This document shows, piece after piece, positions 42,001 through 45,000 of a stretch of DNA of 64,000 bases. Each line of letters opens with the position of its first letter. Within the stretch, counting starts at the first letter, position 1. The stretch comes from Escherichia coli. GTDB lineage: Bacteria; Pseudomonadota; Gammaproteobacteria; Enterobacterales; Enterobacteriaceae. The DNA lies in the NCBI RefSeq assembly GCF_030013205.1, contig NZ_CP122648.1; one strand, written 5' to 3'. Made by a program: the position numbers.

Positions 42001-45000
42001 CTTAATTATCGTGGAGCTTACGGTAATACTAATGTCGGTTACAGTCGGAGTGGTGACAGCAGCCAGATTTATTACGGAATGAGTGGTGGGATTATTGCTC
42101 ATGCTGATGGCATCACCTTTGGTCAGCCGCTGGGCGACACAATGGTTCTGGTTAAGGCTCCTGGCGCTGATAATGTCAAAATAGAGAACCAGACCGGAAT
42201 TCATACCGACTGGCGTGGCTATGCCATATTACCATTTGCGACAGAATATAGAGAAAATCGTGTCGCTCTTAACGCGAATTCCCTTGCAGATAATGTTGAA
42301 CTGGATGAAACCGTTGTCACTGTCATCCCAACTCACGGTGCTATTGCCAGAGCAACATTTAATGCACAAATCGGCGGGAAAGTATTAATGACGTTGAAGT
42401 ACGGTAATAAGAGCGTTCCATTCGGTGCAATTGTCACACATGGTGAGAATAAAAATGGCAGCATTGTCGCGGAAAACGGTCAGGTTTATCTGACTGGACT
42501 TCCACAGTCAGGGAAATTACAGGTTTCATGGGGCAAAGATAAAAACTCAAACTGTATTGTCGAGTACAAGCTTCCTGAAGTTTCTCCTGGTACCTTACTG
42601 AACCAGCAGACAGCAATCTGTCGCTAAGGAACAATAGATTATGAAATACAATAACATTATTTTCCTCGGTTTATGTCTGGGGTTAACCACCTATTCTGCT
42701 TTATCTGCAGATAGCGTTATTAAAATTAGCGGGCGCGTCCTCGATTATGGCTGCACAGTCTCATCGGATTCGCTTAATTTTACCGTAGATCTCCAAAAAA
42801 ACAGTGCCAGACAATTTCCAACGACCGGTAGCACAAGTCCAGCCGTCCCTTTTCAGATTACGTTAAGTGAATGCAGTAAAGGGACAACGGGGGTTCGGGT
42901 TGCATTTAACGGTATTGAGGATGCAGAAAATAATACTCTGTTGAAACTGGATGAAGGAAGCAATACGGCCTCCGGTTTGGGTATAGAAATACTGGACGGA
43001 AATATGCGTCCGGTGAAATTGAATGACCTTCATGCCGGGATGCAGTGGATCCCACTGGTACCAGAACAGAACAATATTTTGCCTTACTCCGCTCGTCTGA
43101 AGTCAACTCAGAAGTCCGTCAATCCGGGACTGGTGAGGGCTTCGGCAACCTTTACCCTTGAATTTCAATAATCAGAGTCAGATATGAAAAGACTTCACAA
43201 GAGGTTCCTGTTAGCTACGTTTTGCGCGTTATTCACAGCAACTCTCCAGGCCGCCGATGTCACTATCACTGTTAATGGTCGGGTAGTCGCTAAACCCTGC
43301 ACTATTCAAACCAAAGAAGCTAACGTTAATCTCGAGGATCTTTATACGCGCAATCTGCAACAACCTGGTTCTGCATCAGGCTGGCACAATATTACTTTGT
43401 CATTTACCGATTGTCCGGTTGAAACAAGTGCAGTGACGGCAATCGTGACAGGTTCAACTGACAATACGGGTTATTACAAAAATGAAGGTACTGCCGAAAA
43501 TATTCAGATAGAGCTAAGGGATGACCAGGATGCGACGTTAAAAAATGGCGATAGCAAAACGGTTATTGTTGATGAGATCACTCGTAATGCACAGTTTCCA
43601 CTTAAGGCAAGAGCTATCACGGTGAATGGAAACGCAAGCCAGGGAACGATCGAGGCGCTAATCAATGTGATCTACACCTGGCAATAACGTCGATTCGATT
43701 TTCTTAGCCTCTTTTTAAATCAATTTTTTAACCTTAGGATATATCATGGGTAAAACAATAAGTATGAAGCTTCTGTTCGGTATTTATCTTCTATTAATGG
43801 CAGGCAAAGTTTTTGCCTTCAGTTGTAATGTCGATGGCGGGTCAAGTATTGGAGCAGGTACAACCTCTGTTTATGTTAATCTCGACCCTGTAATACAACC
43901 GGGCCAGAATCTGGTTGTAGACTTGTCTCAGCATATAAGTTGCTGGAATGATTATGGCGGCTGGTACGACACTGATCATATAAACCTGGTACAAGGCTCA
44001 GCTTTCGCAGGCTCTCTACAGTCATATAAAGGATCGCTGTACTGGAATAATGTGACCTACCCCTTCCCGTTGACGACAAATACTAATGTATTAGATATTG
44101 GTGATAAGACACCGATGCCATTACCGTTAAAACTCTATATTACCCCAGTCGGTGCGGCCGGTGGAGTTGTCATAAAAGCCGGGGAAGTTATTGCCCGTAT
44201 TCATATGTATAAAATTGCCACGTTAGGAAGCGGAAATCCGCGTAATTTTACGTGGAATATTATTTCAAATAACAGTGTTGTTATGCCAACAGGCGGTTGC
44301 ACCGTTGATAGTCGTAATGTCACCGTGAATCTCCCGGACTTTCCTGGAAGCGCAGAAATACCCCTTAGTGTATATTGCTCTAGCGAACAAAAGCTCTCAT
44401 TTTATCTTTCGGGTGCCACCACTGACAGTGCCCGACAAGTGTTTGCTAACACAGCACCAGATGCAACAAAAGCATCGGGCGTGGGTGTCTCTCTGATGCG
44501 TAATGGAAAAACACTGGCAACAGGAGAAAATGTCTCCCTGGGGACAGTAAATAAAAGCAAAGTACCTCTTGGTTTAAGCGCAACCTATGGACAAACAGGA
44601 AACAAGGTTGCAGCCGGAACCGTCCAGTCAGTCATTGGTGTCACTTTTATCTATGAATAATTGTGATTTTGACATTGGTCTATGCGCTCCATTCACGAAA
44701 ATTGCGCGGAAAATTATTTTGTGAAGGCTATTATCCTACATCTGTAAGAAAATCCGCGCACAATTGAAGCCAGAGTCTTATTTTTTATATTGAAAAATAT
44801 GTTAATTTAAACACTATGAGAGATGATGCTTAATTTATCGTATTTAATCTTTTGTTTAACGATAATAGATTAAAATAGAAAGAGAGTAGTCCCCTACTCT
44901 TATATATCCATGTTGACGATAATCCCTTTGTATATACTGTGCATCATCGCTATTACAAATCCTAATAATTCATTTCCACACAGGATAAGCAGATGAAGAA

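What the first reader, a model, noticed from the sequence alone, without database searches (positions are those of the whole stretch)
44733..44750. EvgA-box-like inverted repeat upstream of ydeP
atcctacatctgtaagaa matches the EvgA recognition pattern well, consistent with direct EvgA control of ydeP.
Basis: partly seen in the sequence, partly recalled or inferred. Interest (0 to 1): 0.25.

Follow-up and report, generated by a model that had tools for sequence, protein, structure and literature searches.

The report
Known EvgA operator upstream of ydeP
The 18-base inverted repeat is real and is the already-described docking site through which the acid-sensing regulator EvgA switches on the E. 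coli acid-resistance gene ydeP, so the finding is correct but ordinary.

Summary
The window is E. coli chromosome (ydeQ | ydeP | safA | ydeO). ATCCTACATCTGTAAGAA lies exactly at 44733-44750, 242 nt before the ydeP ATG. It has 1 mismatch to TTCYTACA-N2-TGTARGAA; no shuffled window gave such a match (0/100).

A weight matrix built only from boxes at other EvgA-controlled promoters of K-12 (emrK/evgA, frc, yfdX x2, yegR) ranks this site first in the 64 kb (22.9 of 25.7 bits). The safA box at 47391-47408 is second (17.0), the next site scores 9.6, and 0 of 200 random sequences reach the ydeP score.

Across 11 E. coli strains the half-site cores CCTAC and TGTAAGAA are invariant. Changes fall only on box positions 2 and 8 and the 2-bp spacer. 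The box is absent upstream of ydeP homologues outside E. coli.

Papers I could read state that ydeP is regulated directly by EvgA through such inverted repeats.

Inferred geometry: extended -10 TGtTAATTT (44800-44808), start near 44816, box at about -83 to -66.

Side observations: a conserved TCYTA-TT element 42 bp downstream of the left half-site in six EvgA promoters, and ydeP and safA promoter cassettes that look paralogous.

The parts
44733..44750 (.). EvgA box: 18-bp inverted repeat ATCCTACA-TC-TGTAAGAA (left half 44733-44740, spacer 44741-44742, right half 44743-44750)
   Evidence: Searches give the sequence, the 1 mismatch to the consensus and the chance count of 0/100; leave-one-out matrix, top score in the window; cores invariant in 11 strains.
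44776..44782 (+). Promoter-proximal conserved element TCTTATT. It repeats the half-site core TCYTA 42 bp downstream of the left half-site and is followed by TT. Inferred to be either a low-affinity EvgA half-site abutting a weak -35 or part of the -35 itself.
   Evidence: present at the same offset (+26..+32 from the box end) in ydeP, safA, emrK, yegR, frc and yfdX; best 7-column information window; 0/5000 shifted controls reach it for all six, 0.0014 and 0/5000 for two sets of 4 non-paralogous promoters. Invariant.
44800..44808 (+). Inferred extended -10 element TG-t-TAATTT of the EvgA-dependent ydeP promoter
   Evidence: TG and TAATTT are invariant in 11 strains, including the divergent one. 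safA has TG-t-TATATT at the same offset from its box. The position fits the 178-nt leader used in PMC11210196.
44816..44816 (+). Inferred ydeP transcription start (A). It places the box at about -83 to -66, centre -74.5.
   Evidence: Inference only. [quoted passage not shown]
44764..44791 (+). Alternative promoter-like hexamers TTGAAG-16-TATATT
   Evidence: Found by the consensus scan and listed as a predicted 'constitutive' RpoD promoter, with H-NS, in the ydeQ-ydeP spacer in PMC3946193. Its -10 becomes TTTATT in the divergent strain, so I rate it less likely to be the EvgA-dependent promoter.
44993..47272 (+). ydeP coding sequence (759 aa), the regulated gene
   Evidence: ORF; RefSeq: acid resistance putative oxidoreductase YdeP.
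47391..47408 (.). Second EvgA box, CGCCTACAGCTGTAAGAA, 111 nt before the safA ATG (safA-ydeO operon)
   Evidence: second-best matrix score, 17.0 bits; conserved in 4 strains; PMC9496106 (EvgA binds the safA-ydeO promoter directly).

Best explanation
This is the EvgA operator of the ydeP promoter. Shown here: an 18-bp 8-2-8 inverted repeat sits in the ydeQ-ydeP spacer of an E. coli chromosome. It matches the motif shared by the other EvgA-controlled promoters and its half-site cores are conserved. From the literature: mild acid activates the sensor kinase EvgS, which phosphorylates the NarL/FixJ-type response regulator EvgA, and EvgA binds the ydeP promoter and activates transcription directly. 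Inferred: a head-to-head EvgA~P dimer occupies the two half-sites (TCCTACA / TGTAAGA). The promoter has an extended -10 (TGtTAATTT, 44800-44808), a poor -35, and a start near 44816, so the box is centred near -74.5. From there EvgA either recruits RNA polymerase as an upstream (class I-like) activator, or nucleates further weak EvgA contacts down to the conserved TCTTA element abutting the -35, as its homologue BvgA does at the fha promoter.
For: - Sequence and chance: (1 mismatch; expected 0.00).
- Leave-one-out matrix from emrK/evgA, frc, yfdX (two boxes) and yegR (boxes found): 22.9 of 25.7 bits, rank 1 of the window; safA ranks 2; 0/200 random sequences reach the score.
- Context: the ydeQ-ydeP-safA-ydeO layout is confirmed by RefSeq annotation.
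- Conservation: in 11 E. coli strains CCTAC and TGTAAGAA never change, even in a strain whose flanks are heavily substituted. Changes fall only on position 2, position 8 and the spacer.
- Distribution: the box sits at -260 to -262 from the ATG in every E. coli locus examined. No site scoring above about 10 bits lies upstream of ydeP homologues of Edwardsiella (84-85% aa identity), Yersinia, Raoultella, Tatumella or Burkholderiaceae. This fits EvgAS being confined to E. coli and Shigella (PMC9496106).
- evgA is present in 5398 of 5426 complete E. coli genomes.
- Literature: direct regulation or binding is stated in PMC8174306, PMC8147483, PMC4283999 and PMC3720670.
- Geometry.
Against: - No binding or expression experiment exists for this allele. 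The experiments were done on K-12, whose box is AGCCTACACCTGTAAGAA and differs at position 2 and in the spacer.
- The primary papers (Masuda and Church 2003; Itou et al. 2009) could not be read, so the consensus string rests on my recollection. It is corroborated by the boxes recovered at the other EvgA promoters.
- The transcription start is inferred, not measured here. A different promoter (TTGAAG-16-TATATT) has been predicted in the same spacer.
- evgAS is not inside the window.
Confidence: 0.93

Rival explanations
1. EvgA bound at the box activates ydeP mainly by displacing or counter-silencing H-NS on the AT-rich spacer, not by contacting RNA polymerase. This changes the mechanism, not the identity of the site.
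For: PMC3946193 marks H-NS binding in the ydeQ-ydeP spacer and predicts a 'constitutive' RpoD promoter, TTGAAG-16-TATATT, just downstream of the box (same hexamers). The spacer is very AT-rich. ydeP expression rises from a very low basal level (PMC4283999).
Against: Six EvgA promoters keep the box at a fixed distance from a -10-like hexamer and share a conserved element next to the -35. That argues for a stereospecific contact with the transcription machinery. The -10 of the 'constitutive' promoter is not conserved in the divergent strain.
Confidence: 0.2
2. The repeat is bound, instead of or as well as by EvgA, by another NarL/LuxR-family regulator that recognises related words (TAAGAA / TTCCTA), for example RcsB or NarL.
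For: The half-site words TTCCTA and TAAGAA also make up the primary BvgA site TAAGAAATTTCCTA (PMC7250471), so the family shares vocabulary. From memory only, the RcsAB box is similar. The conserved TGTAAGAAA(A/C)TCCGC run next to the box in both ydeP and safA is unexplained.
Against: In BvgA-type sites the words have the opposite order and spacing (TAAGAA then TTCCTA, abutting), whereas here the order is TCCTA-N6-TAAGA. The site clusters with boxes found only at EvgA-regulon promoters. PMC4283999 reports the motif at all directly EvgA-regulated genes and at no other induced gene.
Confidence: 0.05
3. The repeat is a chance palindrome, or an RNA hairpin or terminator at the end of ydeQ, with no regulatory role.
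For: It lies 73 nt after the ydeQ stop codon, and the arms are only 6 of 8 complementary.
Against: - Chance expectation is 0.00, and 0/200 random sequences reach the matrix score.
- As RNA the region folds no better than shuffles (-6.8 kcal/mol, z = 0.01).
- The scan found no terminator-like site on the + strand there and there is no Rfam match.
- Conservation follows the half-site pattern of a protein site, with a free spacer.
Confidence: 0.02

Closest known systems
EvgA boxes of E. coli K-12 (ydeP, safA-ydeO, emrK/evgA, frc, yfdX, yegR)
   Same: Same 18-bp 8-2-8 inverted repeat, same gene and same distance from the ydeP ATG as in K-12 (242 vs 243 nt from box end to ATG). The score lies within the range of the other boxes.
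   Different: Allelic only. The window has ATCCTACATC..., K-12 has AGCCTACACC.... The window allele is one step closer to the consensus: 22.9 vs 18.1 bits.
NarL-type 7-2-7 sites (NarL/FixJ family response regulators)
   Same: Two inverted heptamer-sized half-sites separated by 2 bp, read by a dimer of LuxR-type helix-turn-helix domains. EvgA belongs to the NarL family (PMC9496106).
   Different: The half-site sequence differs: TCYTACA here, TACYYMT for NarL (from memory). The signal differs too: mild acid through EvgS rather than nitrate or nitrite.
BvgA at the Bordetella fha promoter
   Same: BvgA is the closest characterised homologue of EvgA. It has a strong upstream inverted repeat built from the words TAAGAA / TTCCTA, and weaker sites on the same helix face reach down to the -35 (PMC7250471). 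Here a conserved TCYTA element lies 42 bp (four helical turns) downstream of the left half-site, next to the inferred -35.
   Different: The order and spacing of the words are reversed: BvgA has TAAGAAA|TTTCCTA abutting, EvgA has TTCYTACA-NN-TGTARGAA. Binding of several EvgA dimers is not demonstrated, and the intermediate site is not conserved across EvgA promoters.

Membership tests
EvgA box (EvgA operator) | 18-bp inverted repeat matching TTCYTACA-NN-TGTARGAA | tested here: met
   15 of 16 specified positions match. 22.9 of 25.7 bits on a matrix built from other EvgA-promoter boxes.
EvgA box (EvgA operator) | Lies upstream of the promoter of a gene induced by EvgA | tested here: met
   The box is 242 nt before the ydeP ATG in the ydeQ-ydeP spacer. 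ydeP is EvgA-induced according to PMC11210196, PMC4283999 and PMC8174306.
EvgA box (EvgA operator) | Conservation pattern of a dimer site: half-sites fixed, spacer free | tested here: met
   11 strains: CCTAC and TGTAAGAA are invariant, and the spacer is TC, CC or CT.
EvgA box (EvgA operator) | Co-occurs with evgAS; absent where EvgAS is absent | tested here: inconclusive
   evgA is in 5398/5426 E. coli genomes. The box is absent upstream of ydeP homologues in other genera. I did not check evgAS in those genomes, and the window does not contain evgAS.
EvgA box (EvgA operator) | Bound by (phospho-)EvgA in vitro or in vivo, and required for activation | not testable with these tools
   Reported for K-12 by papers I could only reach through citations (Itou 2009 in PMC8174306; PMC8147483). 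Nothing exists for this allele.
BvgA-like multi-dimer promoter architecture | Strong distal inverted repeat plus weaker sites on the same helix face reaching the -35 | tested here: inconclusive
   A conserved TCYTA lies 42 bp downstream of the left half-site in six promoters. No conserved middle site is seen, and there are no binding data.

The most novel reading that the evidence does not exclude
The 18-bp box may be only the distal half of a composite EvgA-dependent promoter. All six EvgA-activated promoters examined keep a second, promoter-proximal element, TC(C/T)T(A/C/G)-TT. It sits exactly 42 bp downstream of the left half-site core and abuts a weak -35, upstream of a -10-like hexamer at a roughly fixed distance. 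This would mean EvgA works like BvgA, with a high-affinity dimer nucleating a weak contact next to RNA polymerase. I could not establish whether the primary EvgA papers already describe this.
Probability: 0.3. Interest if true: 0.3.

Novelty: already known. Interest (0 to 1): 0.07.

Why it matters
The site is the cis-element that links the EvgS/EvgA acid sensor to ydeP, one of the genes needed for survival at pH 2.5 in exponential phase. Confirming it adds nothing new to that circuit. It does show that this strain carries an intact operator slightly closer to the consensus than K-12's, and a second intact box at safA-ydeO. The side observations could guide a footprinting study of how EvgA activates transcription. 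They are the shared promoter-proximal element and the paralogous ydeP and safA promoter cassettes.

Tried and rejected
- **Consensus or matrix in the literature.** Full-text searches for TTCPyTACA, TTCYTACA, TGTAAGAA and similar strings together with EvgA found nothing usable.
- **Primary papers.** Masuda and Church 2002/2003, Ma 2004, Itou 2009 and Burton 2010 are not held. I replaced the published matrix with a leave-one-out matrix.
- **Hairpin or terminator reading of the repeat.** Rejected: z = 0.01 and no + strand terminator.
- **Known RNA family in 43000-49000.** None; the only hit is a sub-threshold OxyS-like match at E = 0.67.
- **TTGAAG-16-TATATT as the EvgA-dependent promoter.** Considered and rated less likely. 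Its -10 loses the A at hexamer position 2 in the divergent strain, while TGnTAATTT is invariant. The 178-nt leader also fits the latter.
- **A middle EvgA dimer site at (T/C)TGAAGC.** It is shared by ydeP and safA but not by emrK, yegR, frc or yfdX, so it is not a general feature.
- **The extra consensus hit inside ydeO of K-12** (L004 7130-7147, 3 mismatches). Treated as chance.
- **Cross-species footprinting within Escherichia.** The genome scan returned only one E. coli representative plus contaminated bins and no other Escherichia species. Divergence sampling therefore relied on E. coli strains.

Full report
**Observation.**
- It is an imperfect inverted repeat. The arms are ATCCTACA and TGTAAGAA, 6 of 8 positions are complementary, and the spacer is 2 bp.
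- Against TTCYTACA-NN-TGTARGAA, the EvgA consensus as I recall it from Masuda and Church 2003 (a paper I could not read), it has one mismatch.
- With at most one mismatch it is the only hit in the 64 kb, and none of 100 dinucleotide shuffles gave a hit.
- With at most three mismatches the only other hit is CGCCTACAGCTGTAAGAA at 47391-47408.

**Context.** Positions 44400-45300 are 100% identical to several complete E. coli chromosomes and are present in 5331 of 5426 E. coli genomes.
- RefSeq annotation of one identical genome gives the layout: a fimbrial operon (chaperone, usher, ydeS, ydeR, ydeQ), then ydeP, safA, ydeO, ydeN, all on the + strand of the window. K-12 has the same order.
- The box lies in the 332-nt ydeQ-ydeP spacer. 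It is 73 nt after the ydeQ stop and 242 nt before the ydeP ATG.
- The second box lies 111 nt before the safA ATG.

**Matrix test.**
- The published matrix was not available, so I recovered boxes at other EvgA-controlled promoters of K-12:
  - one in the emrK/evgA spacer
  - one upstream of frc
  - two upstream of yfdX (4 hits in 20 kb against 0.19 expected)
  - one upstream of yegR
- These are the promoters that a review lists as EvgA-bound, together with ydeP and safA (PMC8147483).
- A symmetric matrix built from those five boxes, leaving out ydeP and safA, gave:

| Site | Score (bits) |
|---|---|
| Maximum possible | 25.7 |
| ydeP site, window allele (rank 1 in the window) | 22.9 |
| K-12 ydeP allele, AGCCTACACCTGTAAGAA | 18.1 |
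| safA box (rank 2) | 17.0 |
| Third-best position in the window | 9.6 |
| Best score among 200 random 64-kb sequences | 16.7 |

- The window allele is closer to the consensus than the K-12 allele.

**Conservation.**
- The 131 nt around the box occur in 5323 of 5426 E. coli genomes.
- I aligned the whole spacer from 11 strains spanning that diversity, including the GTDB representative SCPM-O-B-8794, whose flanks are heavily substituted.
- CCTAC and TGTAAGAA never change. Variation is limited to box position 2 (G in K-12 only), position 8 (G in the divergent strain) and the spacer (TC, CC or CT). This is the pattern expected of a dimer-binding site.
- A scan of one genome per bacterial species with YdeP returned loci from E. 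coli, two mis-binned E. coli contigs, Edwardsiella (84-85% aa identity), Yersinia rohdei, Raoultella, Tatumella, many Burkholderiaceae and others.
- Only the E. coli loci carry a high-scoring box, at -261/-262 from the ATG (18-20 bits). No other locus has a site above about 10 bits upstream of its ydeP homologue.
- This fits the statement that EvgS/EvgA and SafA are confined to E. coli and Shigella (PMC9496106).
- evgA itself is in 5398 of 5426 E. coli genomes.

**Literature.**
[quoted passage not shown] - PMC4283999: an EvgA binding site is found in all genes known to be directly regulated by EvgA.
- The element is therefore already known. Binding data exist for K-12, not for this allele.

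**How it most likely works.**
- Established: mild acid activates EvgS, which phosphorylates EvgA, a NarL-family regulator (PMC9496106), and EvgA activates ydeP transcription (PMC11210196).
- Inferred from the 8-2-8 symmetry: a head-to-head EvgA dimer reads the two half-sites.
- Inferred promoter geometry:
  - PMC11210196 used a ydeP leader running from -178 relative to the start codon. In window coordinates that is A44816.
  - Seven bases upstream of it lies TG-t-TAATTT (44800-44808), an extended -10 that is invariant in all 11 strains.
  - The safA promoter has TG-t-TATATT at exactly the same offset from its box.
  - The -35 region is poor (TTTTTT).
  - The box would then span about -83 to -66, an upstream-activator position.
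- A rival promoter, TTGAAG-16-TATATT (44764-44791), was found by the consensus scan. It is also listed as a predicted constitutive RpoD promoter, with H-NS binding, in PMC3946193.
  - Its -10 becomes TTTATT in the divergent strain, so I rate it less likely as the EvgA-dependent promoter.
  - It keeps alive the idea that part of EvgA's effect is relief of H-NS silencing.

**Side observations.**
- When six EvgA promoters are aligned by their boxes, the most informative 7-column window downstream is at +26..+32 from the box end:

| Promoter | Sequence at offsets +24..+32 |
|---|---|
| ydeP | agTCTTATT |
| safA | agTCCTATT |
| emrK | agTCCTCTG |
| yegR | aaTCCTATT |
| frc, yfdX | tcTCTGATT |

  - No control with independently shifted sequences reached this score in 5000 trials. 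For two sets of four non-paralogous promoters the fractions were 0.0014 and 0/5000.
  - The element repeats the half-site core TCYTA exactly 42 bp downstream of the left half-site. On the inferred numbering it sits at about -40 to -36, abutting the -35.
  - This resembles BvgA at the fha promoter, where a strong distal inverted repeat is followed by weaker sites on the same helix face, the last one abutting the -35 (PMC7250471).
  - The order of the TAAGAA and TTCCTA words is reversed in BvgA sites, and no conserved middle site is seen here. I treat this as a hypothesis, not a result.
- The ydeP and safA promoters are 61% identical, ungapped and in register, over the 100 nt after the box. Shuffles give 27 +/- 4, and the best of any other 100-nt window in the 64 kb is 44. 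The two promoter cassettes look paralogous.
- The inferred 178-nt ydeP leader folds better than shuffles (-37.1 kcal/mol, z = -3.07). It contains a conserved hairpin at 44883-44900 and conserved complementary runs GATGATGC / GCATCATC.

**Rejected readings.**
- The repeat is not an RNA hairpin or a ydeQ terminator (z = 0.01; no + strand terminator).
- No Rfam family matches in 43000-49000.

**Verdict.** The element is the already-described EvgA operator of ydeP, so interest is low.

Noticed in passing
window 44776-44782; also 47434-47440 (safA promoter); L001 and L003 promoters of emrK, frc, yfdX and yegR: A conserved element TC(C/T)T(A/C/G)-TT lies at +26..+32 from the box end in all six EvgA-box promoters. 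It repeats the half-site core exactly 42 bp downstream of the left half-site and abuts the inferred -35. Shifted controls: 0/5000 for all six, 0.0014 and 0/5000 for two sets of four non-paralogous promoters.
   Followed up: partly
window 44733-44850 vs 47391-47508: The ydeP and safA promoter regions are 61/100 identical, in register and ungapped, downstream of their EvgA boxes (shuffles 27 +/- 4). Shared stretches include TGTAAGAAAnTCCGC, TGAAGC, CAGTCYTATTT, TGTTAnnTT and GATGCTTAA. This looks like a duplicated promoter cassette.
   Followed up: partly
window 44816-44992 (inferred ydeP 5' leader), hairpin 44883-44900: The long AT-rich leader folds better than shuffles (z = -3.07). It contains a perfect 7-bp hairpin, AGAGTAG-tccc-CTACTCT, and complementary invariant runs GATGATGC (about 44823-44830) and GCATCATC (about 44941-44948). 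The scan flags the hairpin as terminator-like on the minus strand. Function unknown.
   Followed up: partly
window 44764-44791: The promoter-like hexamers TTGAAG-16-TATATT are the same pair listed as a predicted constitutive RpoD promoter, with H-NS binding, in the ydeQ-ydeP spacer by PMC3946193. TTGAAG is invariant in 11 strains but the -10 is not.
   Followed up: partly
window 44806-44823 vs L003 (K-12 yegR promoter): The ydeP and yegR promoters share ATTTAAACACTA(T)GAGAG around the inferred start site, although their offsets from their boxes differ by about 5 nt.
   Followed up: no
window 39976-42627: The fimbrial usher gene upstream of ydeS/R/Q is intact here (883 aa; RefSeq 'fimbria/pilus outer membrane usher protein'). 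K-12 carries only a truncated ydeT (1149 nt).
   Followed up: no
L005 (JARKOR010000108.1) and L043 (USHE01000194.1): A contig binned as 'Candidatus Nanosynbacter sp.' encodes a YdeP 100% identical to the window's and carries both EvgA boxes. An 'uncultured bacterium' contig carries the safA box. Both look like E. coli DNA mis-binned into MAGs.
   Followed up: no
L007, L008, L010 (Edwardsiella spp.): Edwardsiella YdeP is 84-85% identical to E. coli YdeP, far closer than that of other Enterobacterales found (Yersinia 67%, Raoultella and Tatumella 56-57%). No other Escherichia species was returned by the scan. This suggests horizontal transfer of ydeP. No EvgA box is present upstream in Edwardsiella.
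   Followed up: no
L001 5502-5531 (K-12 emrK/evgA spacer): The emrK/evgA box is flanked by a third half-site (TTCTTAC-ta-ATCCTACA-gg-CGTAAGAA when read towards emrK). That operator therefore has three half-sites.
   Followed up: no
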